From: Deltaproteobacteria bacterium
Lineage (GTDB): Bacteria; Desulfobacterota_D; UBA1144; Nemesobacterales; CSP1-2
Length of the DNA: 64,000 bases
Assembly (NCBI GenBank): GCA_052390235.1
Contig: JBQTHB010000002.1
Location: forward strand, 300,543 to 364,542
Reading direction: 5' to 3'
The translations under genes were made by a program, and so were the position numbers. Below, in pieces: positions 1-38,327 of the stretch (position 1 is its first letter; each line of letters starts with the position of its first letter). The notes below the pieces were generated by a model. The model worked only from the letters and a program-made list of their open reading frames with translations, did not search any database and had not been told where the DNA came from.

Positions 1-3000
1 GAACCAACGGTTACAAATATAAGACCCGTCGAAGGTTCATGTTTCAATCCCTTATAGGTAGGCTAAGAACATTTAAAACTGCTCTTATTGCCGGGAAAAG
101 AGCCCGGGTTTCAATCCCTTATAGGTAGGCTAAGAACGCGGACAAAGGGAGAGAAAAAACTCCTCCCGTTTAGCGTTTCAATCCCTTATAGGTAGGCTAA
201 GAACTACGACCCCTTCGTAACCTCTTACCCTCCCAACCCCGAGTTTCAATCCCTTATAGGTAGGCTAAGAACTTTCTTTCTCCCTATACTCCGTGGTAAG
301 AATATAGGGTTTCAATCCCTTATAGGTAGGCTAAGAACCCCGGGTGGTTTACTTTTATGCGGATTATTTTTACAGTTTCAATCCCTTATAGGTAGGCTAA
401 GAACTGTTTCTCTCCACATTCGATACACCCTTGCGGTTAATGTTTCAATCCCTTATAGGTAGGCTAAGAACGACGTCTAGGGGTGTATGTAGATGGGGGT
501 TTATAACAGTTTCAATCCCTTATAGGTAGGCTAAGAACTTGTGCAAATTTGCACAAGTTGTGTTGTACTGCTCCGTTTCAATCCCTTATAGGTAGGCTAA
601 GAACCGTAGGTTATCCGTTTGGGTCGGGGGCATCGCGGAAGGTTTCAATCCCTTATAGGTAGGCTAAGAACTAAAAATCTTCCGCCCCTCCGGGAGGGGC
701 GTTGGTGGTTTCAATCCCTTATAGGTAGGCTAAGAACAATTAAAAAAATGGCTAGCTTTAGAGACCCGGGTCTCGTTTCAATCCCTTATAGGTAGGCTAA
801 GAACCAGATTATCCACCTCCCCCAAAGGGGGGAATGAATCGTTTCAATCCCTTATAGGTAGGCTAAGAACAAAATCCCAACAATGCGAGCGGGAGCGCTG
901 CCTCCCGGTTTCAATCCCTTATAGGTAGGCTAAGAACTAGTGATTATTTCCGAGTGGGACAAGGAGGTTCCGCCGTTTCAATCCCTTATAGGTAGGCTAA
1001 GAACAGGATAAAGAAAAATTTGGGGCTGACCCCACCCCGGGTTTCAATCCCTTATAGGTAGGCTAAGAACAAGGAGGTGTCAATGTTTACAAAAAAAGAT
1101 TTTTACCGTTTCAATCCCTTATAGGTAGGCTAAGAACGGTATTTCCCGCCGTACAGGTACAGTCGCACCACGGCGTTTCAATCCCTTATAGGTAGGCTAA
1201 GAACTTTCTCTAGCATCACGACATCTCCTCACTATTCTTTTGTTTCAATCCCTTATAGGTAGGCTAAGAACGAAAACATCGAACGGTGTAGGCGTATCCC
1301 CGTTCTGAGTTTCAATCCCTTATAGGTAGGCTAAGAACAGACTTCGATACCATCAATTCTGCACCCGATGTTATGTTTCAATCCCTTATAGGTAGGCTAA
1401 GAACTCCAAGATTACACCACCACCTATAGCAACCCCCGCTTGTTTCAATCCCTTATAGGTAGGCTAAGAACTATCAGACAGCCTCCGCTCCGAAGGATGG
1501 CTTCTGGAGTTTCAATCCCTTATAGGTAGGCTAAGAACGTACCGGCAAGGTTTCCGTGCTTGTTTGAGGAGTTCAAAGTTTCAATCCCTTATAGGTAGGC
1601 TAAGAACCTCCCTTGTCGAGGTTAGAGGGTTATTAGCCGAGGGGTTTCAATCCCTTATAGGTAGGCTAAGAACCCATAATTCCATCAGACACCTCAAATA
1701 TCTTTTTCGTGTTTCAATCCCTTATAGGTAGGCTAAGAACTCTTGGATAAGGTACAGCCTAGCTTTGCGAACGCAGTTTCAATCCCTTATAGGTAGGCTA
1801 AGAACTATATCTCTTTCTTCATTTTAGGATTTTCCATATTAGTTTCAATCCCTTATAGGTAGGCTAAGAACTGGTGAGCTATGATAGCGAGCGCAAGAGA
1901 TTCTATCGTTTCAATCCCTTATAGGTAGGCTAAGAACTTCCTCATTTATTTATCTCCTTTGTTTTTGTTATCTGTTTCAATCCCTTATAGGTAGGCTAAG
2001 AACACAGACGTCATACGAATAAACATCTATTTGGCTTTTGTTTCAATCCCTTATAGGTAGGCTAAGAACAAGCGAGAATCTCCTTTCGCTCCGCAGACAG
2101 CCTTGGTTTCAATCCCTTATAGGTAGGCTAAGAACCTGACAAGAAGAAGAAGAAGGGGGTGAAGTAATGAGTTTCAATCCCTTATAGGTAGGCTAAGAAC
2201 CCCGGCAACGAGTGCCATTTTAAATTCTGCCTCCGGTTTCAATCCCTTATAGGTAGGCTAAGAACTCTTGGCTAGTCTGGCTCAGTCCGACCCTTCTCTC
2301 ACGTTTCAATCCCTTATAGGTAGGCTAAGAACGCTTATTGCCCGTCGGATAACTCGCGCCAGTGAAAACGTTTCAATCCCTTATAGGTAGGCTAAGAACT
2401 ATTAGAGCATCGTTTTTGTATAGTATCGAGAGGTTCGGTTTCAATCCCTTATAGGTAGGCTAAGAACGGGATAGAGAGAAAGAAATAAGAGTTCGCAAGC
2501 CGAGTTTCAATCCCTTATAGGTAGGCTAAGAACGAGAGGTGTAGGCAGGTTATTTCGTGCATCTCTGCGAAGTTTCAATCCCTTATAGGTAGGCTAAGAA
2601 CGAGCCAGGCACGGCGGGGCAAGCGGGCGGGCGGTGGTTTCAATCCCTTATAGGTAGGCTAAGAACGCGCGCCCCGCTCGCTCCGCACTTTCGGTTGCTC
2701 CGGCGTTTCAATCCCTTATAGGTAGGCTAAGAACTAGGCTTATGTTCCTTAGCCGATTTGTACTTACCATGTTTCAATCCCTTATAGGTAGGCTAAGAAC
2801 GAACACGGCGGTAACGCTAGATGCCGGCAATACAGATATGTTTCAATCCCTTATAGGTAGGCTAAGAACTGGTGAGCTACGATACCGAGCGCAAGAGATT
2901 CTATAGTTTCAATCCCTTATAGGTAGGCTAAGAACAATTGAACCACAAATCAACTATCAGGCTGATATATTCGTTTCAATCCCTTATAGGTAGGCTAAGA

Positions 3001-4803
3001 ACCGACGCCCTGAGAAAACGGCTTTATATACGTATCCTTGTTTCAATCCCTTATAGGTAGGCTAAGAACTTGTTTGCGTTGTCGTATTCTGTACCGAGGG
3101 AACAGTTTCAATCCCTTATAGGTAGGCTAAGAACGCGGTCTAGCCACTGAGTCCGAGATTGCCTCGTTGTTGTTTCAATCCCTTATAGGTAGGCTAAGAA
3201 CGCAAGAGGGTAGGGAGATGATGATTTCCGTTGCCAGTTTCAATCCCTTATAGGTAGGCTAAGAACTTCGGAGAGGAGCTTAGAATCTGGGGTATGTTCC
3301 GGTGTTTCAATCCCTTATAGGTAGGCTAAGAACCCCCCCGCTCGCGCGCTCCTACTTCCTTCTTATTTGTTTCAATCCCTTATAGGTAGGCTAAGAACGT
3401 TGAAGGCTTGGCAGGAGTTTGTCGAAAAGAATAGGTTTCAATCCCTTATAGGTAGGCTAAGAACGGGAGGATGCAAAAACGACTGGAGTCTAACAACTTC
3501 CGTTTCAATCCCTTATAGGTAGGCTAAGAACCTATCGAAGAATTTCAAAAGTATATCCAAGAGGGAAAGTTTCAATCCCTTATAGGTAGGCTAAGAACGG
3601 GAGGGGGAGGGCGGAGTCGGCTTCATCTTCGGCGGTTTCAATCCCTTATAGGTAGGCTAAGAACGGTTTGAGCAAGGAGCTATGAAAGCCGTTCGGAACG
3701 GTTTCAATCCCTTATAGGTAGGCTAAGAACGCACTAGGGAAAGACATAGCTAGGCGCAAAGAAGCGAGTTTCAATCCCTTATAGGTAGGCTAAGAACTCG
3801 TATTCTGTACCGAGGGAACACAATAAGGCACAATAGTTTCAATCCCTTATAGGTAGGCTAAGAACAAGCCCTTTGGGAGTAATGTAATCATCGGGGATTC
3901 TGGTTTCAATCCCTTATAGGTAGGCTAAGAACTGAATATAGTTGACGGGCAATCGTACGCGGCGGTAAAGTTTCAATCCCTTATAGGTAGGCTAAGAACG
4001 AGATAAGAACTGTACGTCCGTCTGGCACATGGAAAGTTTCAATCCCTTATAGGTAGGCTAAGAACAGGGCTAGAGGCTCAGTTTATCCCTTTTGAGCTAC
4101 CGTTTCAATCCCTTATAGGTAGGCTAAGAACGCGTTGTGAATAGGCGAAATCGCGGAACAGGAGAGAAGTTTCAATCCCTTATAGGTAGGCTAAGAACAT
4201 GTATTCTCTGCCTGCGTCTTCGTCTGAAGATGAGGTTTCAATCCCTTATAGGTAGGCTAAGAACGCAGATATCCTTTATGCCCGTGAAATCGGAGATACG
4301 GGTTTCAATCCCTTATAGGTAGGCTAAGAACATGAGTAACCCTGAGAAGATAGAGAAGAATTTACGCCCGTTTCAATCCCTTATAGGTAGGCTAAGAACG
4401 ATGCTATCTCCAAACTAGAAATCACCGGAGAAGCAGTTTCAATCCCTTATAGGTAGGCTAAGAACATGAAGAGTCAAAAGCAGTCAAATCAAAGCGCCTC
4501 ACACGGTTTCAATCCCTTATAGGTAGGCTAAGAACTCGGAGATACGGTGAAAGTTTTACGCGGATGGAGCTAGTTTCAATCCCTTATAGGTAGGCTAAGA
4601 ACATTTCTCTTCGGATTTGGTGTTCGTTTTCCATTATGTGTTTCAATCCCTTATAGGTAGGCTAAGAACGCGTTTAAGGTTTCTTCTTGTGCTAGTACAC
4701 TGCGAAGTTTCAATCCCTTATAGGTAGGCTAAGAACTTTCAACGATGAGCTATTCCTACAAACCAAAGCCTAGGTTTCAATCCCTTATAGGTAGGCTAAG
4801 AAC
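1..4803 (-). CRISPR. CRISPR array, 72 complete 30-bp repeats (GTTTCAATCCCTTATAGGTAGGCTAAGAAC on the + strand) plus the last 4 nt of a further repeat at 1-4; spacers 35-38 bp; continues beyond the left window edge
   Basis: Exact repeat every 65-68 bp, counted from 41 to 4774. Bases 1-4 (GAAC) match the repeat 3' end and are followed by a 36-nt spacer. The leader and cas2 lie at the right end, so the crRNA strand is minus. The minus-strand repeat ends ...ATTGAAAC, typical of type I-B. Confidence 0.97.
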
Positions 4804-4973
4804 CCATTTCTCCCCAATAAATTCAGCATTTTCGATTATCAAAGAACAATATCTAAACTTAAACCTCTTATTTAACATTCTATGAAAACTCCCTGAAATT
4901 TCAACATTTTCCCTAAGTTTGCCTCTTCCGTCTATCCTCCGGTGTTTTTACGCTATTGGGGGTGGACGGAAAA
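4804..4973 (-). promoter_or_regulatory. CRISPR leader (AT-rich, between cas2 and the first repeat)
   Basis: 170 bp AT-rich non-coding sequence directly between the cas2 stop and the leader-proximal perfect repeat. Confidence 0.6.
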
Positions 4974-5237
4974 TCAGATGAATCTCTCTTCGCCTCCTTT
5001 TTTCACCCCTATGAGTAGCCGGTCGGTGTATTTGGTCGTCCTAAATGTGTAGAATATCAGAGAGTCGTAATCTTTGTCAATTATGGCTGTTAGCTCGTAT
5101 CTGAGCTTCTCGAATTGCGCCTCAGTGAGTTCGCCTTCGAGCACGGAATTCTGCACCCAATACAGATATTTGCGGGCGGTTTTCAGCACCTTGGCGACTC
5201 TCTTTTGCCCAACGTCATAGACTAGGATGATGTTCAT
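4974..5237 (-). CDS. cas2: CRISPR-associated endoribonuclease Cas2
   Basis: 87 aa; N-terminal MNIILVYDV...; sits between cas1 and the leader. Confidence 0.9.
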   Translation of the reverse strand: MNIILVYDVGQKRVAKVLKTARKYLYWVQNSVLEGELTEAQFEKLRYELTAIIDKDYDSLIFYTFRTTKYTDRLLIGVKKGGEERFI

Positions 5238-5274
5238 AATTCATGATACATGATGTATCGCGCATCTCGGCAAA

Positions 5275-6276
5275 TCACCACTCCCACAGAAACGGCGTAT
5301 ATTCCTCCTCCCCCATGAGGTGCTTTTCCAATTTATATAGCTCAAGCCTTATGAGCCGTCTATTCGACACGGGCTTCCCAATTTTCTTATGAGTGATGGT
5401 TGTCTCAAGCCTCTCCTCAAACTCCCTGGAAAATATCTTTGCGCCGTCTTCATTCATGACCACGCCGTCCATTTTTTTCTCGAAATGGTTTTTCTGGAGT
5501 TGCCCCTTGTTGACGAGCGAGAATATCATCCTATCAACGAAAATGGGTTTGAACACCTCCGCCACATCCAAATTGAGCGTGAATCGCCTGAAATTCGTCG
5601 TGTGAAGAAACCCGATGCGCGGGTCTAGGTGGGTTTTATAGATTTCGCTCAGCACAGTTGTGTAGAGTAGGGAGTTGCCGAAGCTGATGAGGGCGTTTAG
5701 GCGGTTTTTAGGCGGGCGGCGGGTGCGGGATTCAAATTTGAAATCGCCATCTTCAATAATCCCATCGAATGTGGAGTAATAAGCCTCTCGGATGTTCCCT
5801 TCAATCGCCATGAGGGAGTCTGTCGCCTCCTGCTTCGGGATGCTCTCGGAAAGGGCTGAGATGTAATCCGAGGTTTTGCCGATGTCCGCGCTCTCTTTCC
5901 TTCGGGCGTAGTAGTCAATGACTTTACGGATGTTGCCGACTGCGCCTTCGATGAATTTGCGGGCTATGGCGATTCTGGCTTTGGGGTCGTTGTAGTAGGT
6001 TGCCTGCTTCAGCGTCATGTAGCCTGAGTTTAGGTGTTCGCGCGGGTAGAAACTGCCGATGTAGTATTGATAGTGGTTGAAGAAGTGGAGGGTTATCTCT
6101 TTTTGCGATGCGAATTCCAGAAACCGCTTATTCAGCGTAACCTCGCCAAATATCATGAGCTCCTGCGTTCCCTCGACGGGGATAAATTTCTTCTCGCCCC
6201 GCTCGTTCTCGAAATAAATTGTGTTGTCCTTGCGCTTAAGCTCGCCGTCGCTGAAGATGAATATGCGTGTTTTCAT
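5275..6276 (-). CDS. cas1: CRISPR-associated integrase Cas1
   Basis: 333 aa with a Cas1-like sequence; adjacent to cas2 and cas4. Confidence 0.9.
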   Translation of the reverse strand: MKTRIFIFSDGELKRKDNTIYFENERGEKKFIPVEGTQELMIFGEVTLNKRFLEFASQKEITLHFFNHYQYYIGSFYPREHLNSGYMTLKQATYYNDPKARIAIARKFIEGAVGNIRKVIDYYARRKESADIGKTSDYISALSESIPKQEATDSLMAIEGNIREAYYSTFDGIIEDGDFKFESRTRRPPKNRLNALISFGNSLLYTTVLSEIYKTHLDPRIGFLHTTNFRRFTLNLDVAEVFKPIFVDRMIFSLVNKGQLQKNHFEKKMDGVVMNEDGAKIFSREFEERLETTITHKKIGKPVSNRRLIRLELYKLEKHLMGEEEYTPFLWEW

Positions 6277-6369
6277 CTTTTTCTAGGTTCTAGAGTGGTT
6301 TTCACACTAGTTTAATCCTTATGAAGCTGTCATGCCCGAAGTAGTAATTGGGCATCCATGTCTTCAACT

Positions 6370-6475
6370 ACTAGATTCCCGGCTTAAAAACTGCGGGAAT
6401 GACAACCTCTTGCATCTTGCCCAGGATACCGGAGTTTCTGTCCGGTCTCTGGATACTGCGGGAATGACATCCCGC
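6370..6475. repeat. MITE-like palindromic element copies (ATTCCC-N8-GGGAAT core, ...GGGAATGACA end) between cas1 and cas4
   Basis: ctagattcccggcttaaaaactgcgggaatgacaa and ctgcgggaatgacat; same family as 9445-9715, 10495-10570 and the others listed below. Confidence 0.8.
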
Positions 6476-6494
6476 ATCCTCCGTGCGTTACGCT

Positions 6495-7004
6495 TTAACT
6501 CCAGCAAAACTCCCGATATCCGCAGTTTGTGCAGTAGCCAATCTTTACCGCTTTTGGCGGAAGCTCCTGTGCGGCGATTCTCTTGATTTCATCAATTGCC
6601 CCCTCAAGCTCCGCAACCAACGCCTCGGTGAGCGAGACCTTCTCCTTCCTCTTCTCCTTCGGAAAAAGAAGCTCCCCTTCAGCCTCGATGCCGTAATCCC
6701 GCAGAACGTACAGATAGTAGGCAAGCTGCATCCTTGCCGCCTCTATCGCTTTTGAGCTTTTCTTAATCTCGCCGACCACGACTTTATCCTCATCGAGCCG
6801 CGTGAGGTCAATCACAACATTTTCGAGATGAATCTGCTTTTTATCTCTCTGATACGTGTTTTCGTTTATAAACCTCCCAAGCTCTATAAATGCATTGTCC
6901 TGATCCGGCACGATGTTCCTCGTCATAAGCCAAAGCTCTCGGCGGCAGATGTAGTAGCAGTCAATGAGAGTACCGTTCACTTTAAATTCGCTCTCGGCTA
7001 CCAA
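6495..7004 (-). CDS. cas4: Cas4 (RecB-like nuclease with Fe-S cysteines)
   Basis: 169 aa; N-terminal Cys and C-terminal CTNCGYREFC cluster; located between cas3 and cas1. Confidence 0.85.
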   Translation of the reverse strand: MVAESEFKVNGTLIDCYYICRRELWLMTRNIVPDQDNAFIELGRFINENTYQRDKKQIHLENVVIDLTRLDEDKVVVGEIKKSSKAIEAARMQLAYYLYVLRDYGIEAEGELLFPKEKRKEKVSLTEALVAELEGAIDEIKRIAAQELPPKAVKIGYCTNCGYREFCWS

Positions 7005-9427
7005 ATTGCCACGCCTCCTTTTAATTTATATCCGGTCTCAAAGTCGTAATACTCATCAATCTGGGAGCTTGAGACGAACGGCATTCCTTCGTCTATGGCA
7101 GGCAGGTTCACCCCCCCTCGCTTCGGCACGGAAACCGAATATTCATAAAACTTTGCCTTTATTTTATCAAACTTCTCTCTTCTCTCGAACGGATTTTGTG
7201 TTTCTCTTATATCTAAAAACTTTTCCCAAATATTTATTGCCTCATTATCAAACTGGATGAAAATATCTACTTTCTCGTAATCCTCTTCAATCAATCTAAA
7301 AGTCCATATACCGTTATCTCCATCGTAGTTCAGCCTGTAGAAGGCTTTGAGAATGTCTCTGGATTTCTGGTCGGATTTTGCCTCGGCAATAAGTTTATAG
7401 TATTCATCAATAAGGTTTAAAAACTCGCTTTCACCGATTTCCTCTCTACCGGAAAGCACTTTTCGGGTTCTGTCCAAAAGTATCGAGTCTTTGTTGTAAA
7501 TGTAGGTTGAGTATTCTCTTCCGGTTTTTCCATCTCTGAGCCTTATGACTCTTATCTCCCTGCCTGCCGATAGTCCGTTTCTGTTACATCTCCCCGCAGA
7601 CTGATTGATCGAATCAAGCGGGCAGAAGTCTCGATAAACAACGTCGAAGTCAATATCCACTCCCGCCTCGACAAGCTGAGTAGTAACGGCGATCCTCTTT
7701 TTCCTTTCTCTGATTTCGTCAATCCTCCTGAGTCTTTCTTTTGGAATCACGTGAGTTGAAAGGTATGTCATCTCTTCTCGCTTTAATCCACTTTCTCTGA
7801 GAAGGCTGTAAAATTCCTTTGCCGAGCCGATTGTGTTGAAGATGAAAAGAAATCTCTTGTCGCCCTTCAGAGCTTCAGTGATTACCGAACCTGCAAATTC
7901 TCTGATGGTTCTGGATTCGGCTATATCAGGCTTCAGAATTACTCTGTGCAAGCTACTAAAATATTTCTCTCTCTCGACAAGTGAAACTGTTTCTCCTCGT
8001 TTGAAAATCAGCGGCTCAGTTGCGGTTACAAATATGAAATATGTGCTGAATTTCTCAGCCATGAAGCGGATTATATCGCGCATGAGAAGCCAGTATTTAT
8101 GAGGGATTGCCTGAATCTCATCCAAGATTACGATGCTTCCCGCGATACGGTGAAACTTCCTTATGCTGCGGTTTTTATTGGAAATCAGCGTATGGAAAAG
8201 CTGTATGAACGTCGTAACGACAATCTCGGAGTTCCAGCCCTCAATCATAATATTCGAGGCGTCGAACTCAAAATCCTCATAATCAGTTTTCCAATGGTAA
8301 TTTACATCCGCCAGATGGTGGTGCTTGAGCAGAACCGGGCTCAGTGGCTCAATATCACTTGCCTTGAGCGCGTCCTCAAAAACTTTACAATTCTGGTCAA
8401 TTACGCTTAGGAATGGCAGAGAATAAATTATGCGAGAACTGTTGCTTCTGTCTTTCTGCATCTTCTCTCTTAGCTTCAGCGCAAAGGCAAGCGAGGTAAG
8501 GGTTTTCCCAAGACCTGTGGGAAGGTTTATTGAGTAAATCTTCTCATCAAGATTTATCTCACGGCTCAGAACTTCTTGAAACGCTTGTTCCCGAAGCTCG
8601 TCAATGTCTTTCTTTTCCCAATTCTGCTTCTGTTTATAACAGCTCACAATTTCATGGCTGAGATTAATTTTGCTCCCGAAGTTTGCTATTTCTTCTCTAT
8701 CTTTTTCTGATACGGCTACTTCATTTTTATCGGCGTCTAGCAAGAGGGAGTAAATAAGGTGAATCAGAAAGTAGTAATCGTAGCTCTCTTTCCCATACAT
8801 CGCCTCATATTCGTCTAGCATTTCGTAGCTTGCGTCTTTTATTTTCTTGAATCTCTCGCAGAGCCATTCATAAGAGAAAGGGCTGCCAAGCTTTTCAAGT
8901 AAGACGTTGAACTTTTGCTTATCGATACTTTCAAGCTGTTCCTGAAGGAGAGAAATATCACTGTCTTGAAACTCTATCTCACAGTTATATACATCCCCAA
9001 GGTTGCCGTGATGACGTTTGCACACCAGAAACGAGGCAATCGGAACAAATCTAAAAAGACCGTCGTATTTACCCTCTCTTTGCAGAAGTTCTTTTGTGAG
9101 GAAGTAAGCTATTACCGAGCCAAAAAGGGCGTGAGAGCTCTTTCTGCTTTTCAGCTTTTCCCTCTCTTCGCGAGTTTTCGCCGTAATATATTGCTGAAAA
9201 TAAGATGTAGCCTTTCCCAGATCGTGGGATGTCGTTATGATTTTTGCTACTTTCCTGAGCGTTTCTTTGTCAATAATACCAGCGGGATTATTTTCCAGAG
9301 AAAGCAGGGCGAGGTCGGTTACGGCTTGGGTGTGGTTTTCTAGGAATTTGCCCGGATGAGAAAATAATCCGGATTCTGTATTAATGCTTTCAACAATAAA
9401 GTTATTGGATTGGTTCTCATTTGCCAT
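6998..9427 (-). CDS. cas3: Cas3 HD-nuclease/helicase
   Basis: 809 aa; N-terminal HD motif (TTSHDLGK); helicase motifs (GLGKT, VILDEIQ). Confidence 0.9.
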   Translation of the reverse strand: MANENQSNNFIVESINTESGLFSHPGKFLENHTQAVTDLALLSLENNPAGIIDKETLRKVAKIITTSHDLGKATSYFQQYITAKTREEREKLKSRKSSHALFGSVIAYFLTKELLQREGKYDGLFRFVPIASFLVCKRHHGNLGDVYNCEIEFQDSDISLLQEQLESIDKQKFNVLLEKLGSPFSYEWLCERFKKIKDASYEMLDEYEAMYGKESYDYYFLIHLIYSLLLDADKNEVAVSEKDREEIANFGSKINLSHEIVSCYKQKQNWEKKDIDELREQAFQEVLSREINLDEKIYSINLPTGLGKTLTSLAFALKLREKMQKDRSNSSRIIYSLPFLSVIDQNCKVFEDALKASDIEPLSPVLLKHHHLADVNYHWKTDYEDFEFDASNIMIEGWNSEIVVTTFIQLFHTLISNKNRSIRKFHRIAGSIVILDEIQAIPHKYWLLMRDIIRFMAEKFSTYFIFVTATEPLIFKRGETVSLVEREKYFSSLHRVILKPDIAESRTIREFAGSVITEALKGDKRFLFIFNTIGSAKEFYSLLRESGLKREEMTYLSTHVIPKERLRRIDEIRERKKRIAVTTQLVEAGVDIDFDVVYRDFCPLDSINQSAGRCNRNGLSAGREIRVIRLRDGKTGREYSTYIYNKDSILLDRTRKVLSGREEIGESEFLNLIDEYYKLIAEAKSDQKSRDILKAFYRLNYDGDNGIWTFRLIEEDYEKVDIFIQFDNEAINIWEKFLDIRETQNPFERREKFDKIKAKFYEYSVSVPKRGGVNLPAIDEGMPFVSSSQIDEYYDFETGYKLKGGVAIW

Positions 9428-9444
9428 GCTGAATCTTCACCTCA

Positions 9445-9715
9445 TTCCATGAGCGGAGAAGCCATCATTCCCATGCAAACGGGAATCCGGCATTTAAAAT
9501 CACTAGATTCCCACTTTCGTGGGAATGACAACTACTGCTCTATTGTTTGCCTCTTTGTCATTCCCGCAGTCTTTTGAGCGGGAATCCAGCAGTTCTGAAT
9601 ACTGGATTATCAATTTCGTGGTAATAACGCCTAGATAGTTTGTCATTCTCGAACGCTTTATCGAGAATTCAGCAGTTCTCAAATACTAGATTCCCGTTTT
9701 CACGGGAATGACAAC
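9445..9715. repeat. Cluster of about 3 MITE-like palindromic elements between cas3 and cas5
   Basis: tagattcccactttcgtgggaatgaca; gtcattcccgcagtcttttgagcgggaatcc; gattcccgttttcacgggaatgaca. Confidence 0.85.
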
Positions 9716-9736
9716 ATAGCCAATTACCGAACCACT

Positions 9737-10462
9737 TTAGAGGAACATGATTCTTTCTCCATTTTCTATTTCCCAAAATCGCTGTGGAATAACAACAAAG
9801 GATTTTCCTTCAGCTTCGTACATCACCTCTCCGTATTCTGTAACCACTCTGTCTGTTGTCATCTCCATCGGTATTTTCTCTTTAAAATACTTTTTCCCCG
9901 GCTCAAATTTTATGCTGTCTTTCTTCTTTATAAGCCCCGAAAGAGGCACGACTGAACCAATCTCCGCTTCGGTTTCCATTTTTTCTAAAATGCCGAACTC
10001 TCCGACGTAGGAGAAATTGCATAACAACTCGCTCAAGCCTAAGCAGGGCGTATAAACCGATTTATGCCGGCTCAGATTATCTCTCAGACTTTCATAAAGC
10101 CATTGGTCGGTGTGAGAAATGTATATTCTAAACTTTGGATATTTTAAAAATTCGGTTCTAATTTGGGTTCTAGGTTCATGACCGCTCTTTTTAATCAGAG
10201 TCCAGCAGTTCCCCTTAGTGTTGATGAGGTTTATGCCGATTCTAGTCTTTTTCACAGGGTTTAAAAGCCTGATTCCTATGCTCGCATCCTTTTTAGAGAA
10301 ATGTTTAAGATATTCGTCTTTGCCTAATCCGATGATAGCCGCAAGAAGCCCTGTAACCGAAGTTCTAGGAGGAATCGAGAACGTAAGCGGCGAAGAGGTC
10401 GTGTAGAATTTCCTGAAATGTGCATAATCTCCCCACACATCAAATACAAGAACTTTGTCCAT
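9737..10462 (-). CDS. cas5: Cas5 (type I-B RAMP)
   Basis: 241 aa; N-terminal VFDVWGDYAHFR...; position between cas7 and cas3. Confidence 0.85.
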   Translation of the reverse strand: MDKVLVFDVWGDYAHFRKFYTTSSPLTFSIPPRTSVTGLLAAIIGLGKDEYLKHFSKKDASIGIRLLNPVKKTRIGINLINTKGNCWTLIKKSGHEPRTQIRTEFLKYPKFRIYISHTDQWLYESLRDNLSRHKSVYTPCLGLSELLCNFSYVGEFGILEKMETEAEIGSVVPLSGLIKKKDSIKFEPGKKYFKEKIPMEMTTDRVVTEYGEVMYEAEGKSFVVIPQRFWEIENGERIMFL

Positions 10463-10494
10463 TGTGAGCCTCTTTCTTTGTTTGTTTTTTTGTT

Positions 10495-10570
10495 TTGTTA
10501 TTCCCGAATATTTCTATCGGGAATCCAGTATTTAAAACTATGTGGATTCCCACTTTCGTGGGAATGACAA
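10495..10570. repeat. MITE-like palindromic element (TGTTATTCCCGAA...TCGGGAATCC + GGATTCCCACTTTCGTGGGAATGACA)
   Basis: Two-hairpin unit with TGTCATTCCC/GGGAATGACA-type ends. Confidence 0.85.
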
Positions 10571-10576
10571 GTTAAA

Positions 10577-10867
10577 TTATCTCGTCAACTCATCATACAA
10601 ATCCTTCCAATCAGGATTCACATTCTCAATAAGTTCGATTTTCCATTTCCGGTTCCATTTCTTCAGCCTTTTTTCTCTCTCAATGGCGCTATGTACATCG
10701 TTTGTTTGCTCATAATAAACCAAATCATGTACGCAGTATTTTTCGGTGAATCCCCTAGCTATGTTGCTTTTGTGTTCATAGACTCTCTTGAGCAAGTTAT
10801 TTGTAACGCCAATATAGAGCGTGCCGTTCTTTTTACTAGCCATAATATAAACGTAGTAAATATTCAT
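10577..10867 (-). CDS. GIY-YIG nuclease family protein (small UPF0213/COG2827-like) inserted inside the cas operon
   Basis: 96 aa; YVYIMAS...LYIGVT...RVYEHK...EREKRLKKW matches the GIY-YIG motif set. Confidence 0.8.
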   Translation of the reverse strand: MNIYYVYIMASKKNGTLYIGVTNNLLKRVYEHKSNIARGFTEKYCVHDLVYYEQTNDVHSAIEREKRLKKWNRKWKIELIENVNPDWKDLYDELTR

Positions 10868-10920
10868 ATATGCCCGCTAGTTATTAATTCACACCCTCGA
10901 CGAAAGATAACCCCTCGACC

Positions 10921-11215
10921 ATTGTCATTCCCGAACGTTTCTATCGGGAATCCACTTATTATTTAAATACTGGATTTCCACTTTAGTGGGAATGACGCCT
11001 ACATGGTTTGTCATTCTCGAACGCTCCCAGTCCAATACTTTCGGGGACAGTCCTTACCGAGAATCCATCAGTTCTGAAATACCGGATTCCCACTTTCGTG
11101 GTAATGATGCCTGTATGATTTGTCATTCTCGCAGTCTTTTGAGCGGGAATCCACTCATTCCTTCAATACTGGATTCCCGTTTTCACGGGAATGACAGACT
11201 AAAGATTGGAAATGG
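10921..11215. repeat. Three tandem MITE-like palindromic elements between the GIY-YIG gene and cas7
   Basis: ttgtcattcccgaacg...; tttgtcattctcgaacg...ggattcccactttcgtggtaatga; tttgtcattctcgcagtcttttgagcgggaatcc...ggattcccgttttcacgggaatgaca. Confidence 0.85.
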
Positions 11216-11238
11216 CATCTCACAATGACATATCGGAA

Positions 11239-12201
11239 TCACACCTTCATTTCTTGAACTGTAATCCCGTTAAATAACTCCGTGATAGGTCTCGGCGTAA
11301 TCTGAACCCTACCGTCCACTTTGTACTCCACTCTCTCTATCTTCTCTTTGTGCGTGGAAAGGGCCTTGGCAAGCTCTGTAAGGTCAAGTGAGACCTCTGA
11401 AATATCTCTTATCGCCTCGTCCTGCTTTTCTCCTTTCTCAAGTCGTACCATCTTATCCAAATCCCCAATGTGGAAATTCCCTTCTTTATAAACCACCCTG
11501 AGAAGCAACCTCGGCATCTGCCCAGCCTTCGAGCGTGAGATGAGGTTTTTCGTGCCATTCCATATCCCATCCATAAGAAGCGACATATCGCCTTCCGTAA
11601 GCCTCGTCTCTTTCGCTGCATTCTCATTGGCAACGCCCCAAAAGGCGATTAGCGAATAAGACAGGAAGTACTCTTCTCGGAATGATTTTTGCCCTTTTCC
11701 TTCTACTGCGAATGCAGCCGTACCTTTTATATACTGAAGATTTACCCTATGGAGAGAAGCGCCCATTTTAAATTGGACAGGCCCGGTATGAGTTATTGAA
11801 TCTTTGTCTAGTGGAAGTGTTGTGCCGAAGAGTCGTATATCAATACACTCTTTTAAAACATTCTCATTTATGATTTTCTTCATCTCAACTGCGCTGACAC
11901 TTCCTTTCTTCATTCTGCTTCCCGCCGAATCGGTAAAGAAGTGTTTGGCTCTCTGCTTCGCATCCTGCAATGTTCCCTTTTCTTCATCTGCAAATATTTC
12001 CCTTACAAATATTTCCTTCCCCTTAAAATCCTTCAGATAATCTCTGACAGTCCGCTTGAGTCTCACATCCGTTACGAAGTTCTTTCCGGTCTCTTCGTCA
12101 ATTCTCGGTTTGTTCTCGTCAACCGGGTCGCCGTTCGGGTTAGCGTTGCTTACGTCGTAGAGAAATAAAATCTCCGAGCGGTTTTTTATGATTTCACTCA
12201 T
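11239..12201 (-). CDS. cas7: Cas7 (type I-B, Csh2/DevR family)
   Basis: 320 aa; YDVSNANPNGDP...TGKNFVTDVRLKRTVRDY is a classic Cas7 motif. Confidence 0.9.
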   Translation of the reverse strand: MSEIIKNRSEILFLYDVSNANPNGDPVDENKPRIDEETGKNFVTDVRLKRTVRDYLKDFKGKEIFVREIFADEEKGTLQDAKQRAKHFFTDSAGSRMKKGSVSAVEMKKIINENVLKECIDIRLFGTTLPLDKDSITHTGPVQFKMGASLHRVNLQYIKGTAAFAVEGKGQKSFREEYFLSYSLIAFWGVANENAAKETRLTEGDMSLLMDGIWNGTKNLISRSKAGQMPRLLLRVVYKEGNFHIGDLDKMVRLEKGEKQDEAIRDISEVSLDLTELAKALSTHKEKIERVEYKVDGRVQITPRPITELFNGITVQEMKV

Positions 12202-13961
12202 TGCTTTCCCTCCTCCATGGTTTCTTTTTTCTCATAAACGATATTTGTTATCTCTTTAGCCAGATTCATCCCGCAGGCGAAGTAGAAATTTATTTCGTCA
12301 TTGGAGAGCTTCCATCCGTTACCGGCTTCGAGCAGGTAAAAAGAGACGGCTTCGGCAATCGCTCTTTTTCCTTTATCGAAGGATTTATACTCTTCCAGCT
12401 TGTTCTGCACCTTTGGGAGCAGTCCTTTGATTTCTTTCTCGCTCAGTTTAAGCCCCTGAAGCTGTTTTATGAACGGTTTGGACTTTTTGTCCTCATACTG
12501 CGTCCAGAAAAGCAGTTCGGTTAAAGCTCCTAAAAGGAAAATCCCTCTCGCCGCAGGTGTTGTGAAAGACTTTCCATACTTCTCGAAAAACGGAGAAAAA
12601 CTTTCTGTACTCATTGCGACCTCCTCGAATTTGATAAGACCTAGCTTTTCAAAAAAGAGCATGTCCAGTACTGCATCTCTTACGTCGAAAAAGAATTTGC
12701 CTCCTGTTTCTATATCTAAAAAATCTCTCCTTATTTTGTTCATCATAACCTGGAGAATGAAATGAAAATCGAGATTTCCTCCTTTGAAGGTTTTATCCAC
12801 TATTTCAAGGAAATATTTATCAAGGTCATTGCTCTTCTTCCCCTCATCCGACTTCTGAAAAAACTGCCTTATTCTCCTGAAGTTGAACTCAAATTTTTCG
12901 CCGAAAATCTTATCAACCTCGTCTTTCTTCTCCATTATCGTTCTGAGCCTTGAAGGAAGCACGTCTTCAACCAACAGGAGTATTCTCTCCACGCCGCCAG
13001 ATTGCTCTCTGCTTAGGAAGAAAAAGTTAAACGTCAGATAGTCGTTTTCTTGAGACAGCGTTCTCCAAATTCTGTTCTCTCTTACTACTATCTCCTTCTT
13101 GTCTGTGAGGCTTTGCTCATGTTTATTTATCATTTCAAAAATTCGGAATATTCTCTCTCTCAGTTCATCGCCGCCGAACATAAATTTAGGGACAATATAG
13201 TAACGCAGCCCGTAGAAGCTAAATCCGAGATTTGCCAAAACGAACTTCTTCCCTTCCTCAAGGCTCTGCTTGCACTCTCCGCAAACCGGATAATTCTTCC
13301 AAGCCTCTTCTTTCCTAAACCCGCCGCTTATAAATCCTGGCTTGTCATTCGTATAAAACTTGAAAATATCAACTACAAATACTGCATCTTTTGTCTTACT
13401 ACATAGCGAGCAGAGCTTGTCCTTGCTTGTTAATCTTGCATCTCTTTTAGCTGCGGCTTGAACTAGATAGCTTTGAAACGCCTCAAAGTCGCCAATATAT
13501 TTCTCATCGTCTCCGTCTTTTACCTTCACAGTTAACATCGCTTTTTTCTGTGTTTCATAACTTTTGACAGCATTTGCTATATTTTCTATATCGCTGATAA
13601 ATGCGGTTTTTAAATTTGTGAGAAACGCTTTGCCGTCTTCGCCAATTTGAAAGGGAGACAAATCCATCTTCTCAAACCATCCCTGAATTTTCCTAGGAAA
13701 AGTCTTGTCAAACTCCTTTAGCATAGCTGCAGGTGTGAAATTTACTCCATTTTTAGAGCCTGTTCTGTAGAGATACTTATTTACTTTCCCCAGATCGAAC
13801 TCCTCTAGCTTTACTTCTAAGAACTTAAAACCTTCCTCATGCTTTTCAAAAACTATGGCAATTACATTTTCAGCATTCGGTTTCTCAATAAGTGTGCTGA
13901 GAAGAGTTTTATTTCCCCTCTTTAAAATCGTGTCTCCCAGTTCTTTGACTGCTTGTATCAT
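12198..13961 (-). CDS. cas8b: Cas8b large subunit (type I-B)
   Basis: 587 aa large protein immediately upstream of cas7 with a 4-nt overlap; position and size fit Cas8b. Confidence 0.75.
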   Translation of the reverse strand: MIQAVKELGDTILKRGNKTLLSTLIEKPNAENVIAIVFEKHEEGFKFLEVKLEEFDLGKVNKYLYRTGSKNGVNFTPAAMLKEFDKTFPRKIQGWFEKMDLSPFQIGEDGKAFLTNLKTAFISDIENIANAVKSYETQKKAMLTVKVKDGDDEKYIGDFEAFQSYLVQAAAKRDARLTSKDKLCSLCSKTKDAVFVVDIFKFYTNDKPGFISGGFRKEEAWKNYPVCGECKQSLEEGKKFVLANLGFSFYGLRYYIVPKFMFGGDELRERIFRIFEMINKHEQSLTDKKEIVVRENRIWRTLSQENDYLTFNFFFLSREQSGGVERILLLVEDVLPSRLRTIMEKKDEVDKIFGEKFEFNFRRIRQFFQKSDEGKKSNDLDKYFLEIVDKTFKGGNLDFHFILQVMMNKIRRDFLDIETGGKFFFDVRDAVLDMLFFEKLGLIKFEEVAMSTESFSPFFEKYGKSFTTPAARGIFLLGALTELLFWTQYEDKKSKPFIKQLQGLKLSEKEIKGLLPKVQNKLEEYKSFDKGKRAIAEAVSFYLLEAGNGWKLSNDEINFYFACGMNLAKEITNIVYEKKETMEEGKQ

Positions 13962-13990
13962 AGGTTAGTCCTCATCTTTGTTGTCTAAAA

Positions 13991-14175
13991 GTGTCATTCC
14001 CAAATTTATTTATCGGGAATCTCATACTTTAGAACTGCCGGATTCCCACTTTCGTGGGAATGACACCCACACAATTTGTCATTTGCATGATTTGTCATTC
14101 CCGCAGTCCTTTGAGCGGGAATCCAGTGGTTGAAAAAACATGGATGCCCGATTGCTGCTTCAGGTATGACAAAAC
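13991..14175. repeat. MITE-like palindromic element cluster between cas6 and cas8b
   Basis: gtgtcattcccaaatttatttatcgggaatc; ggattcccactttcgtgggaatgaca; tttgtcattcccgcagtcctttgagcgggaatcc. Confidence 0.85.
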
Positions 14176-14197
14176 GCAAACATCGTATCTTTGGTTA

Positions 14198-14944
14198 TCA
14201 ATCCCCTCTCCCCACCACCTCAAAGCAGCCGAACCCCTGGGAGTTCTTGCCTCCCAGCCCCGCGTCATAGGCGAGCTTTATGAGTTCCCTATCTCCGCCG
14301 AGTTCATAAATCCCCATCCAGCCCTTGATGACGGTATCTCTGTAGAACATTATCTTCTCGTTCGAGTTATTCACCTTCACCGGCAGGAGCGATAACCCCC
14401 CTTCCGGCTCCCTCTCGTAGAAAGCCCTGAATTTCTTCTTGGCATTCTCGCCGATGAGTTCTGCAAATTCCCTCTCAAATGGGGTGTAGTAATAGGTTTT
14501 CTTTTTCCCATCTGCCCTGGACAGGGTGCTGTAGATAGTGGCTGGCGAGAGCATCTTGATTATGAGCTTGTCTGCCTCTACGGCGAAATCCGACATCTCT
14601 ACTGCCGCGAGCCGGAGCGTTTGCGAGTGGATTCTCCCCCGCTCCCCTCTGAGGAGTTCCTCGCCGAGTTCCTCAATAAATTCTCTCATCGGAGAGCTTA
14701 CAACGAGCCTGAACGGAGAGGCAAAGGTTATTGTCTCCTTCGATTTGTTAATTTCATATTCGCCGAGTATGCGAGAGAACGTAAAGAGCCGAAATGTTCG
14801 ACCCTGCGCGGAAAACCCCCTCGTGTGGAGCATGTCGGCGAGCTTCTGTGAGATGGAGCGATAGATAAAAGCCTGAACGTAGTGGCTGTGGTGAATGGGA
14901 AGGCTGAAGCCCGTGTCCGATGCGAATTCTAGGGTTAATCTCAT
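14198..14944 (-). CDS. cas6: Cas6 crRNA endoribonuclease
   Basis: 248 aa; C-terminal glycine-rich loop GLGGKNSQGFGCFEV; first gene of the I-B operon. Confidence 0.85.
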   Translation of the reverse strand: MRLTLEFASDTGFSLPIHHSHYVQAFIYRSISQKLADMLHTRGFSAQGRTFRLFTFSRILGEYEINKSKETITFASPFRLVVSSPMREFIEELGEELLRGERGRIHSQTLRLAAVEMSDFAVEADKLIIKMLSPATIYSTLSRADGKKKTYYYTPFEREFAELIGENAKKKFRAFYEREPEGGLSLLPVKVNNSNEKIMFYRDTVIKGWMGIYELGGDRELIKLAYDAGLGGKNSQGFGCFEVVGRGD

Positions 14945-37553: not shown

Positions 37554-38327
37554 ATGGCTATTGGTGTCTGTCCTACATTTTGGCTCGATAAACCGCAAAC
37601 CGATAGGCTCAAGGCTCTGGCTAGGGCGGGAGGCGACGGCGCGATTGAACTATTGCGCGGGACTCAACCGGCGCCGCGACCTGGTCAATATGAAGACTTG
37701 AGCTTGAAGCTGTATTTCAGCGCTGGGGGTGATCCATCGGGCGGGCCCGATACAATGGTAGTAACTCTGCTAATTGTAAACCTCGGCGCTGAACCGTTGC
37801 TTTTGTCGGAACCCCCCGCTGACCCCTGGGGACAACTCCGCTACGCCCCAGTGGTGATGAATCGCCTCGATGCGTTTGATAAACCGCGGGGTTCTGACCG
37901 TGTTGGCGACCCCCTGCCATCTGGCTTTGTGAAGCAGGAGAGCTATAGTTGGGACAAACATAGCGAGTGGGTACAATTCTGGATTGACCCCGCCCCGATA
38001 GACGCCCTAGGAGCGGGCTCGTCGTCGGTCGGGGTATTTCAAATTGTCAAAGATTACGGGATGTACTCAGGCGCGGGAGGCGCGGTTAAATTATCTAGCT
38101 CCGGGCGTTTTGACCACTGCTATATCGGGGGCGAATACAACTATAATAGCGTTAAAAACTGCGGCGCTATCGGTATGAAAGACTGCGGCACTGCGCGGGA
38201 CTTCTTTGATAAATTTGTCGCCGGCGCTGAGCGTTATACCGATACCGATGCCTCAGGCTCTGGGGCTTACTGCGCTTGCAGTAGCATAAACGGTCCTTTC
38301 AACTGTATAACGGCGGTGATTCCATAA
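37554..38327 (+). CDS. Hypothetical Cys-rich protein, first gene of a three-gene operon
   Basis: 257 aa; C-terminal Cys cluster (CYIGG...NCGAIGMKDCG...YCACSS...NCI). Confidence 0.5.
   Translation: MAIGVCPTFWLDKPQTDRLKALARAGGDGAIELLRGTQPAPRPGQYEDLSLKLYFSAGGDPSGGPDTMVVTLLIVNLGAEPLLLSEPPADPWGQLRYAPVVMNRLDAFDKPRGSDRVGDPLPSGFVKQESYSWDKHSEWVQFWIDPAPIDALGAGSSSVGVFQIVKDYGMYSGAGGAVKLSSSGRFDHCYIGGEYNYNSVKNCGAIGMKDCGTARDFFDKFVAGAERYTDTDASGSGAYCACSSINGPFNCITAVIP

What the first reader, a model, noticed from the sequence alone, without database searches (positions are those of the whole stretch)
1842..4575. Near-duplicate and overlapping spacers suggest primed adaptation against one target
The spacers at about 1872-1908 and about 2869-2905 differ at only 2 positions (ctggtgagctaTgataGcgagcgcaagagattctat versus ...Cgata C...). 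The spacers at about 3069-3103 and about 3796-3834 overlap by 23 nt on the target (tcgtattctgtaccgagggaaca). The spacers at about 4264-4300 and about 4535-4572 overlap by 12 nt (tcggagatacgg). Several spacers drawn from adjacent or overlapping protospacers are a hallmark of interference-driven (primed) acquisition in type I systems and show the system has been active.
Basis: seen in the sequence. Interest (0 to 1): 0.5.

Follow-up and report, generated by a model that had tools for sequence, protein, structure and literature searches.

The report
Overlapping spacers in a type I-B CRISPR array
A long bacterial CRISPR array holds several memory snippets cut repeatedly from the same few spots of unknown invader DNA, which shows an active and otherwise ordinary type I-B immune system that may have used "primed" re-sampling, though this cannot be proven without the invader sequence.

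Summary
Window 1-4803 is a CRISPR array of 72 identical 30-nt repeats and 72 spacers, cut off by the window edge. It lies next to a complete type I-B cas operon on the minus strand, with the leader at 4804-4973, so the rightmost spacers are the newest.

- sp28 and sp43 are the same 36-nt protospacer with 3 differences, not 2.
- sp46 and sp57 dovetail by 23 nt.
- sp64 and sp68 dovetail by 12 nt (never matched in 1500 shuffles).
- I found a fourth pair: sp18 and sp51 overlap by 10 nt on opposite strands (p about 0.015).

Neighbouring spacers differ, so these are independent acquisitions, not array duplications. The overlaps reveal four upstream flanks: TTG, TCA, TCG and TCA. All fit known type I-B PAMs.

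[quoted passage not shown] That is the geometry reported for type I-B priming. The newer near-duplicate differs from the older one at PAM-adjacent position 1.

No target was found in any phage, plasmid, viral, metagenome or protein database. Uniform naive sampling of a 20-40 kb invader would give as many overlaps. Priming is plausible but unproven, and "one target" is unsupported. This is an ordinary member of a known kind.

The parts
1..4803 (-). CRISPR array: 72 identical 30-nt repeats and 72 spacers of 35-40 nt. It is truncated by the window start and transcribed on the minus strand. The repeat in crRNA sense is GTTCTTAGCCTACCTATAAGGGATTGAAAC.
   Evidence: Rfam CRISPR-DR2 hits on all 72 repeats. 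Orientation rests on the cas operon direction, the leader position, a leader promoter-like site, the ATTGAAAC 3' end of the repeat, and degenerate repeats at the leader-distal end of homologous arrays.
4804..4973 (-). Leader between the cas2 stop codon and the first (newest) repeat, with a sigma-70-like site TTGAAA-16-TAGAAT at 4904..4877.
1872..1907 (-). sp28, the older member of the near-duplicate pair.
   Evidence: 33/36 identical to sp43 in the same register.
2870..2905 (-). sp43, the newer member of the near-duplicate pair. It differs from sp28 at crRNA positions 1, 21 and 26.
   Evidence: In + frame 3 the changes are TAT/TAC (synonymous) and AGC/ACC (Ser/Thr).
3070..3104 (-). sp46, the older member of the 23-nt dovetail pair. 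Its upstream flank, read from sp57, is TTG.
3798..3835 (-). sp57, the newer member of the pair. Its protospacer starts 15 nt upstream (PAM side) of sp46 on the same strand.
4265..4301 (-). sp64, the older member of the 12-nt dovetail pair. Its upstream flank, read from sp68, is TCA.
4536..4572 (-). sp68, the newer member of the pair. Its protospacer starts 25 nt upstream (PAM side) of sp64 on the same strand.
1205..1241 (-). sp18. Its PAM-proximal 10 nt (1232-1241) are the reverse complement of the PAM-proximal 10 nt of sp51. The inferred upstream flank is TCG.
   Evidence: An exact dovetail of 10 nt or more occurs in 1.5% of shuffles.
3399..3434 (-). sp51, on the opposite target strand, overlaps sp18 head to head (3425-3434). 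The inferred upstream flank is TCA.
4974..7004 (-). Adaptation module: cas2 (4974-5237), cas1 (5275-6276) and cas4 (6495-7004).
   Evidence: NCBIfam TIGR01573, TIGR03641 (type I-B Cas1b, 460 bits against a cut-off of 304) and TIGR00372.
6998..14944 (-). Interference module: cas3 with HD and helicase domains (6998-9427), cas5b (9737-10462), cas7/csh2 (11239-12201), cas8b (12198-13961) and cas6 (14198-14944).
   Evidence: NCBIfam hits, all above the curated cut-offs.

Best explanation

Shown: four spacer pairs come from overlapping or identical protospacers. They entered the array at different times, 4 to 33 spacers apart. Each protospacer whose upstream flank can be read has a T-Y-N flank.

Inferred: at least some of these events were primed. 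crRNA from the older spacer guided Cascade to a matching or partly matching target. Cas3 was recruited and moved 3'-5' along the displaced strand. Cas1-Cas2-Cas4 then captured new PAM-flanked fragments right next to the priming site, on its PAM side and in the same orientation (sp57 after sp46, sp68 after sp64).

For sp28 and sp43, a variant invader carrying three substitutions, one of them at PAM-adjacent position 1, would have weakened interference by sp28. The same protospacer was then re-acquired in its updated form as sp43.
For: - Complete I-B operon and adaptation genes.
- 72 identical repeats, and a leader with a promoter-like site.
- The overlaps are far beyond chance.
- The flanking spacers are unrelated, so these are not segmental duplications.
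- The four flanks deduced from the overlaps are TTG, TCA, TCG and TCA. All are T-Y-N, which has a probability of roughly 3e-4 for four random trinucleotides. All appear in the published list of type I-B PAMs: TCA, TCN, TTG, TTN (PMC8482600).
- In both same-strand pairs the leader-proximal spacer lies on the PAM side in the same orientation. In H. hispanica I-B, 86% of upstream primed protospacers show this (PMC3936756), and P. furiosus I-B shows the same pattern (PMC7293040).
- Priming tolerates seed mismatches (PMC7293040), and sp43 differs from sp28 at crRNA position 1.
- In the + frame that is open in both, the sp28/sp43 differences are one synonymous and one Ser/Thr change. This fits natural alleles of a gene rather than decay within the array.
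- Pair members sit somewhat closer in the array than random pairs would (P = 0.06).
Against: - No protospacer was found anywhere. The wider clustering, the PAM logo and the strand bias that define priming could therefore not be measured.
- Only two pairs are informative for the geometry, with a chance probability of about 1/16.
- The sp18/sp51 pair (PAM side, opposite strand) has the minority geometry.
- If most of the 72 spacers came from a single 20-40 kb element, uniform naive sampling alone predicts 3-7 overlapping pairs. Spacer GC spread (sd 0.104) is no larger than that of host 37-mers (0.103), so composition does not exclude a single source.
- The pairs are separated by 3 to 32 other spacers, so they were not acquired in a single burst.
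Confidence: 0.5

Rival explanations
1. Naive (unprimed) repeated sampling. The host met the same small or very abundant invader many times, or that invader has an acquisition hot spot such as a free DNA end, nick site or rolling-circle origin. Cas1-Cas2-Cas4 independently picked neighbouring PAM-flanked fragments with no guidance from existing spacers.
For: The birthday calculation gives 72 spacers drawn uniformly from 20-40 kb an expected 3.4-6.8 pairs overlapping by 10 nt or more. PAM restriction makes exact re-use of one site (sp28/sp43) more likely. Crisp, narrow naive hot spots are documented in a I-B host (PMC7293040). The sp18/sp51 pair has a geometry not favoured by priming. The pairs are separated by many intervening spacers.
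Against: It requires nearly the whole array to derive from one phage-sized pool. If only about 30 spacers did, fewer than 0.5 same-strand overlaps are expected, by scaling. It does not predict that the newer member lies on the PAM side in the same orientation, as both same-strand pairs do. In H. hispanica I-B, naive acquisition from virus was not detectable at all (PMC3936756).
Confidence: 0.38
2. Recombination between arrays of related strains brought together spacers that different lineages had acquired independently from the same invader locus. The related spacers would then never have interacted within a single lineage.
For: Array recombination is documented as a mode of CRISPR evolution (PMC4524480, listed). 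All repeats are identical, which offers abundant homology.
Against: Nothing in the window points to it. It still requires independent acquisition at the same loci. No second array version was available, because the Logan contigs end at the leader. Arrays with the same repeat in a Desulfobacterales MAG share no spacers.
Confidence: 0.07
3. Duplication of a repeat-spacer unit inside the array followed by point mutation. This applies to sp28/sp43 only.
For: The two spacers have the same length and register, and 33 of 36 positions are identical.
Against: The neighbouring spacers are unrelated. There are 3 substitutions in 36 nt but none in 2160 nt of repeats. The substitutions look like synonymous or conservative coding changes. 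It cannot explain the dovetail pairs, which contain sequence absent from their partners.
Confidence: 0.03
4. The similarities are chance matches between unrelated spacers.
For: Ten-nucleotide internal words shared between spacers are common (about 3 per shuffle). The weak pairs sp1/sp33 and sp4/sp37 fall within the shuffle range.
Against: No exact dovetail of 12 nt or more appeared in 1500 shuffles. The 23-nt and 33/36 matches have BLAST E-values of 7e-10 and 3e-12 within the spacer set.
Confidence: 0.01

Closest known systems
Type I-B primed adaptation in Haloarcula hispanica (Li et al. 2014, PMC3936756)
   Same: The subtype and gene set are the same (Cas1, Cas2, Cas4, Cas3, Cas5-8). An older spacer with an imperfect match can prime. 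[quoted passage not shown]
   Different: There the target genome, the genetic requirements and about 100 mapped spacers were available. Here only 2-4 overlapping pairs exist and no target is known. The PAM there is TTC, whereas here the inferred flanks are TTG, TCA and TCG. That host is an archaeon and this one is a bacterium.
Type I-B primed adaptation in Pyrococcus furiosus (Garrett et al. 2020, PMC7293040)
   Same: New spacers cluster around the target, with non-target-strand protospacers on the PAM side. Priming works with seed mismatches. Cas4 is involved.
   Different: P. furiosus uses an NGG PAM, has two Cas4 proteins and several effector types. It also shows naive hot spots, which are the main rival explanation here.
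Natural arrays with several spacers against one mobile element, read as a footprint of priming (Nicholson et al. 2019, RNA Biol; cited in PMC9367070)
   Same: The inference has the same logic: spacers in one array that map close together on a target are taken to suggest priming.
   Different: That work mapped spacers onto known targets and tested clustering and strand bias statistically. Here the relatedness is visible only because the protospacers physically overlap. PMC9367070 itself notes that independent naive acquisition is an alternative.
Arrays with the identical 30-nt repeat in an uncultured Desulfobacterales MAG (CAZEOQ01; L001-L003)
   Same: The repeat sequence, spacer length (36-39 nt) and leader side are the same.
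   Different: No spacers are shared, and no overlaps beyond chance occur among its 48 spacers. Its leader sequence also differs.

Membership tests
[quoted passage not shown] | Signature large subunit Cas8b together with Cas7, Cas5 and Cas6 | tested here: met
   TIGR02556/TIGR02591 (Cas8b/Csh1, 339 bits), TIGR02590 (Cas7/Csh2, 323 bits), TIGR02592 (Cas5b, 158 bits) and TIGR01877 (Cas6). All are above the curated cut-offs.
[quoted passage not shown] | Cas3 with an HD nuclease and an SF2 helicase | tested here: met
   TIGR01596 (HD, residues 29-234) and TIGR01587 (helicase core, residues 300-646) lie in one 809-aa protein. Pfam domains on the identical Logan protein agree.
[quoted passage not shown] | Adaptation module Cas1-Cas2-Cas4 next to a leader and array | tested here: met
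   TIGR03641 (Cas1b), TIGR01573 and TIGR00372. The leader is at 4804-4973 and the array at 1-4803.
[quoted passage not shown] | A 5' PAM on the protospacer strand | tested here: inconclusive
   Only four flanks could be read from the overlaps: TTG, TCA, TCG and TCA. They agree with each other and with published I-B PAMs. No real protospacers were found.
Primed (interference-driven) adaptation | A pre-existing spacer matches, fully or partly, the DNA from which new spacers are taken | tested here: met
   In each pair the leader-distal (older) spacer covers the same locus as the newer one. sp28 matches the sp43 protospacer at 33 of 36 positions.
Primed (interference-driven) adaptation | New protospacers cluster around the priming protospacer more than PAM density predicts | tested here: inconclusive
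   The overlaps show extreme local proximity for 3-4 pairs. The size of the target pool is unknown, and a 20-40 kb pool sampled uniformly gives the same number.
Primed (interference-driven) adaptation | Subtype-specific strand pattern. For I-B: same orientation on the PAM side, opposite orientation on the distal side | tested here: inconclusive
   Both strong same-strand pairs fit. The sp18/sp51 pair does not. The weak pairs sp1/sp33 and sp4/sp37 would fit. That is 4 of 5 in total, which is not significant.
Primed (interference-driven) adaptation | Dependence on Cas3 and the Cascade effector | not testable with these tools
   This needs genetics in the host or a heterologous reconstitution.

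The most novel reading that the evidence does not exclude
The array may preserve a natural, ordered record of type I-B priming in an uncultivated bacterium. It would include a 'spacer update', in which an invader variant escaped sp28 through a PAM-adjacent seed mismatch and the very same protospacer was re-acquired in its new form (sp43). It would also include two cases in which the primed spacer was taken 15 and 25 nt upstream of the priming site. If so, primed capture in this system can start within a spacer length of the R-loop.
Probability: 0.35. Interest if true: 0.35.

Novelty: new member of a known kind. Interest (0 to 1): 0.25.

Why it matters
If the priming reading holds, the array is field evidence that type I-B priming works in a wild, uncultivated bacterium. 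So far it has mainly been shown in laboratory archaea. It would also show priming acting on immediately adjacent DNA and updating an escaped spacer. In practice, the overlaps yield a PAM (T-Y-N: TTG, TCA, TCG) and an array orientation without any known target. That is useful for host-virus linking, or for repurposing this system. Otherwise this is a normal, active-looking I-B locus, and its spacers are database 'dark matter' like most spacers.

Tried and rejected
Target searches, all negative:
- All 71 spacers joined by N's were run with blastn (word size 11, E up to 1) against 50,697 phage records and 72,556 plasmids.
- IMG/VR was scanned exactly for the sp46/sp57 23-mer, the repeat, the sp18/sp51 junction, sp71 and sp70.
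- IMG/VR was also scanned with codon-degenerate patterns for the sp64+sp68 peptide YAREIGDTVKVLR and the sp28/sp43 peptide.
- JGI metagenome contigs were scanned for the 23-mer and the degenerate sp64+sp68 pattern.
- A composite of all open-frame peptides from the merged spacers was searched against the 5.8-billion-protein collection. It gave 103 word-sharing candidates, none with E of 10 or less. My calibration shows that only a perfect 20-aa match would pass (E about 0.8). This negative is therefore informative for sp64+sp68 and sp18+sp51 but not for the shorter peptides.
- There is no self-target in the remaining 59 kb of the window; the longest match is 14 nt. There is none in the fetched loci either.

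Other attempts:
- I looked for the source genome. The exact Cas1 and HslU proteins occur only on Logan contigs of SRR34758883 and SRR34758881, which break at the array. UvrC, with my start-codon choice, is not on record.
- I tested whether spacer GC heterogeneity shows many sources. It does not: the spread equals that of host 37-mers, and the lag-1 GC autocorrelation is not significant.
- I tested for a coding-strand bias by counting open frames. There is no asymmetry, 140 versus 142.
- Nucleotide bias at spacer ends: none was obvious.
- Cas8b has no sequence relative in the PDB, and the repeat RNA is unstructured.

Rejected explanations: duplication within the array, and chance.
Full report
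**What is there.**
Window 1-4803 is one CRISPR array. It has 72 copies of an identical 30-nt repeat (GTTTCAATCCCTTATAGGTAGGCTAAGAAC on the + strand) and spacers of 35-40 nt, mostly 36-37. The window opens with the last four bases of a further repeat followed by a complete 36-nt spacer (5-40). So 72 spacers are visible and the array runs off the window. I number spacers sp1-sp71 from left to right, and sp0 is the one at 5-40.

To the right lies a complete type I-B operon, entirely on the minus strand:
- cas6, 14198-14944
- cas8b, 12198-13961
- cas7, 11239-12201
- cas5, 9737-10462
- cas3, 6998-9427
- cas4, 6495-7004
- cas1, 5275-6276
- cas2, 4974-5237

Every gene scores above the curated NCBIfam cut-off, including the I-B-specific Cas1b, Cas5b, Cas7/Csh2 and Cas8b/Csh1 models.

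**Orientation and age order.**
The 170 nt between cas2 and the first repeat (4804-4973) is the leader. It carries a sigma-70-like site on the minus strand, TTGAAA-16-TAGAAT at 4904..4877. In minus-strand sense the repeat ends in ATTGAAAC, the usual 8-nt crRNA handle of Cas6-processed I-B repeats (established knowledge). Homologous arrays with the same repeat in a Desulfobacterales MAG have their degenerate repeats at the end far from the equivalent leader. The array is therefore read on the minus strand. sp71 is the newest spacer, and lower numbers are older.

**Check of the observation.**
All three relationships are real.
- sp28 (1872-1907) and sp43 (2870-2905) share length and register and are 33/36 identical.
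- The last 23 nt of sp46 (3070-3104) equal the first 23 nt of sp57 (3798-3835).
- The last 12 nt of sp64 (4265-4301) equal the first 12 nt of sp68 (4536-4572).

A 12-nt shared word at any position is not unusual, since shuffle maxima reached 13. An exact end-to-start dovetail of 12 nt or more, however, never occurred in 1500 shuffles of the spacer set, and one of 10 nt or more occurred in 1.5%.

The last 10 + bases of sp18 (1232-1241) are the reverse complement of the last 10 + bases of sp51 (3425-3434), so these two protospacers lie on opposite strands and overlap. Two further opposite-strand alignments are within the range of shuffles: sp1/sp33 at 20/25 and sp4/sp37 at 15/18. I treat them as unproven. 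The 48 spacers of the MAG arrays show nothing comparable.

**Not duplication.**
The neighbours of sp28 (sp27, sp29) and of sp43 (sp42, sp44) are unrelated. The pair differs at 3 of 36 positions, while 2160 nt of repeats carry no change. In the + frame that is open in both copies the peptides are VSYDSERKRFY and VSYDTERKRFY. That is one synonymous change (TAT/TAC) and one Ser/Thr change, and the third difference is a C/A at a first codon position. This looks like two natural alleles of a coding sequence. Two minus frames are also open, so the frame is not certain. The dovetail pairs each contain sequence their partner lacks, so they can only be separate captures from overlapping stretches of the same DNA.

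**What the overlaps reveal without a target.**
Each partner supplies flanking sequence for the other. In crRNA orientation, the three bases upstream of the protospacer are:
- TTG for sp46
- TCA for sp64
- TCG for sp18
- TCA for sp51

All are T-pyrimidine-N, which has a probability of roughly 3e-4 for four random triplets. TCA, TCN, TTG and TTN are all on the published list of type I-B PAMs (PMC8482600). In the opposite orientation the two readable flanks, TTG and AAA, do not agree. This adds independent support for the orientation above.

In crRNA orientation, newer sp57 starts 15 nt upstream of older sp46, and newer sp68 starts 25 nt upstream of older sp64. Both are on the same strand as the older spacer. 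sp43 differs from sp28 at crRNA positions 1, 21 and 26, and position 1 is the PAM-adjacent seed.

**Comparison with measured type I-B priming.**
In Haloarcula hispanica, 86% of new protospacers upstream of the priming protospacer lie on its non-target strand, meaning the same orientation. 89% of downstream ones lie on the target strand. The priming spacer there matched the virus only about 73% (PMC3936756). Pyrococcus furiosus I-B shows the same PAM-side, non-target-strand preference, and priming works with seed mismatches or non-canonical PAMs (PMC7293040).

Both strong dovetail pairs have exactly this geometry. The sp28/sp43 pair fits an escape variant that was re-sampled. The sp18/sp51 pair (PAM side, opposite strand) has the minority geometry. 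With so few pairs, this is consistency and not proof. Two out of two has a chance probability of about 1/16, and 4 of 5 with the weak pairs included is not significant.

**The main rival.**
Suppose the 72 spacers were drawn uniformly from one pool of G bp. The expected number of pairs overlapping by 10 nt or more is then 6.8 for G = 20 kb, 3.4 for 40 kb and 1.4 for 100 kb. Repeated naive sampling of one small or dominant invader, or of an acquisition hot spot, would produce what is seen. Such hot spots are described in P. furiosus.

I looked for evidence that the spacers come from many sources and found none. Their GC spread (sd 0.104) equals that of 37-mers from the host chromosome (0.103). 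Pair members sit somewhat closer in the array than random pairs would: the distances are 15, 11 and 4, with P = 0.06. That fits any temporally clustered exposure.

If only a minority of spacers came from the relevant element, the naive expectation falls well below one pair and priming or a hot spot would be needed. That fraction is unknown.

**Target hunt.**
No protospacer was found.
- Negative by blastn of all spacers: phage records and plasmids.
- Negative in IMG/VR.
- Negative in JGI metagenome contigs.
- Negative in the protein collection with peptides translated from the merged spacers. My calibration shows this could only have detected the 20-aa peptides.
- No match in the rest of the window.

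The organism itself is seen only on Logan contigs of SRR34758883 and SRR34758881. It is a bacterial chromosome carrying UvrC, HslUV, MinD and TruD, with 52% GC. Those read sets are the obvious place to look for the invaders, but they cannot be searched by DNA with these tools. Nothing links the three or four loci to one element.

**Verdict.**
- Independent, PAM-consistent re-sampling of the same invader loci by an intact I-B system is well supported.
- Priming is the best single mechanism, and I put it at about 0.5.
- Naive re-sampling or a hot spot is close behind, at about 0.4.

This is an ordinary example of a known phenomenon in a previously undescribed array. Its most useful by-product is a target-free inference of the PAM and the orientation.

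Noticed in passing
sp18 and sp51 overlap by 10 nt on opposite strands at their PAM-proximal ends. An exact dovetail of 10 nt or more occurs in 1.5% of shuffles. The deduced flanks, TCG and TCA, match the other pairs.
   Followed up: yes
window 71-107 vs 2201-2235; 273-308 vs 2468-2503: Two weak opposite-strand alignments: sp1/sp33 at 20/25 and sp4/sp37 at 15/18. They could be diverged versions of overlapping protospacers, with the geometry that priming favours, but their scores fall within the shuffle range.
   Followed up: partly
window 1-40: The window starts inside the array, with the last 4 nt of a repeat followed by a complete 36-nt spacer. The array is therefore longer than the 72 repeats seen, and its oldest end and any degenerate terminal repeat lie outside the window.
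   Followed up: yes
window 10463-11238: An unusual 776-nt gap between cas7 and cas5 holds a 96-aa ORF (10577-10867, minus strand). It has a weak match to GIY-YIG/group I intron endonucleases (E = 3e-4, below the cut-off) and no PADLOC hit. It may be a small nuclease gene inserted into the cas operon.
   Followed up: partly
window 30261-35117 (-): A 1618-aa protein with AAA_11/AAA_12 helicase domains and an MTES_1575 restriction-endonuclease-like domain. It gives a strong PADLOC match to the candidate defence protein PDC-S37 (E = 9e-76) and a weaker one to Hhe. It lies about 15 kb from the cas operon, which suggests a defence island.
   Followed up: partly
window 37554-42245 (+): Three co-directional, abutting ORFs of 257, 583 and 717 aa. 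The two largest have no Pfam hit (the 257-aa ORF was not scanned against Pfam) and none of the three has a PADLOC hit. They sit between the PDC-S37-like gene and housekeeping genes.
   Followed up: partly
window 2602-2704 and 1806-2039: The two most GC-rich spacers, sp39 (83%) and sp40 (76%), are adjacent in the array. The most AT-rich, sp27 (22%), sp29 (25%) and sp30 (33%), are also neighbours. This hints at consecutive acquisitions from compositionally unusual sources, although the overall lag-1 GC autocorrelation is not significant (p = 0.25).
   Followed up: partly
L001-L003 (CAZEOQ010000020, 37, 33): An uncultured Desulfobacterales MAG carries three arrays with the identical 30-nt repeat and spacers of similar length. 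It shares no spacers with the window and has a different leader. This suggests horizontal spread or conservation of this I-B repeat type.
   Followed up: partly
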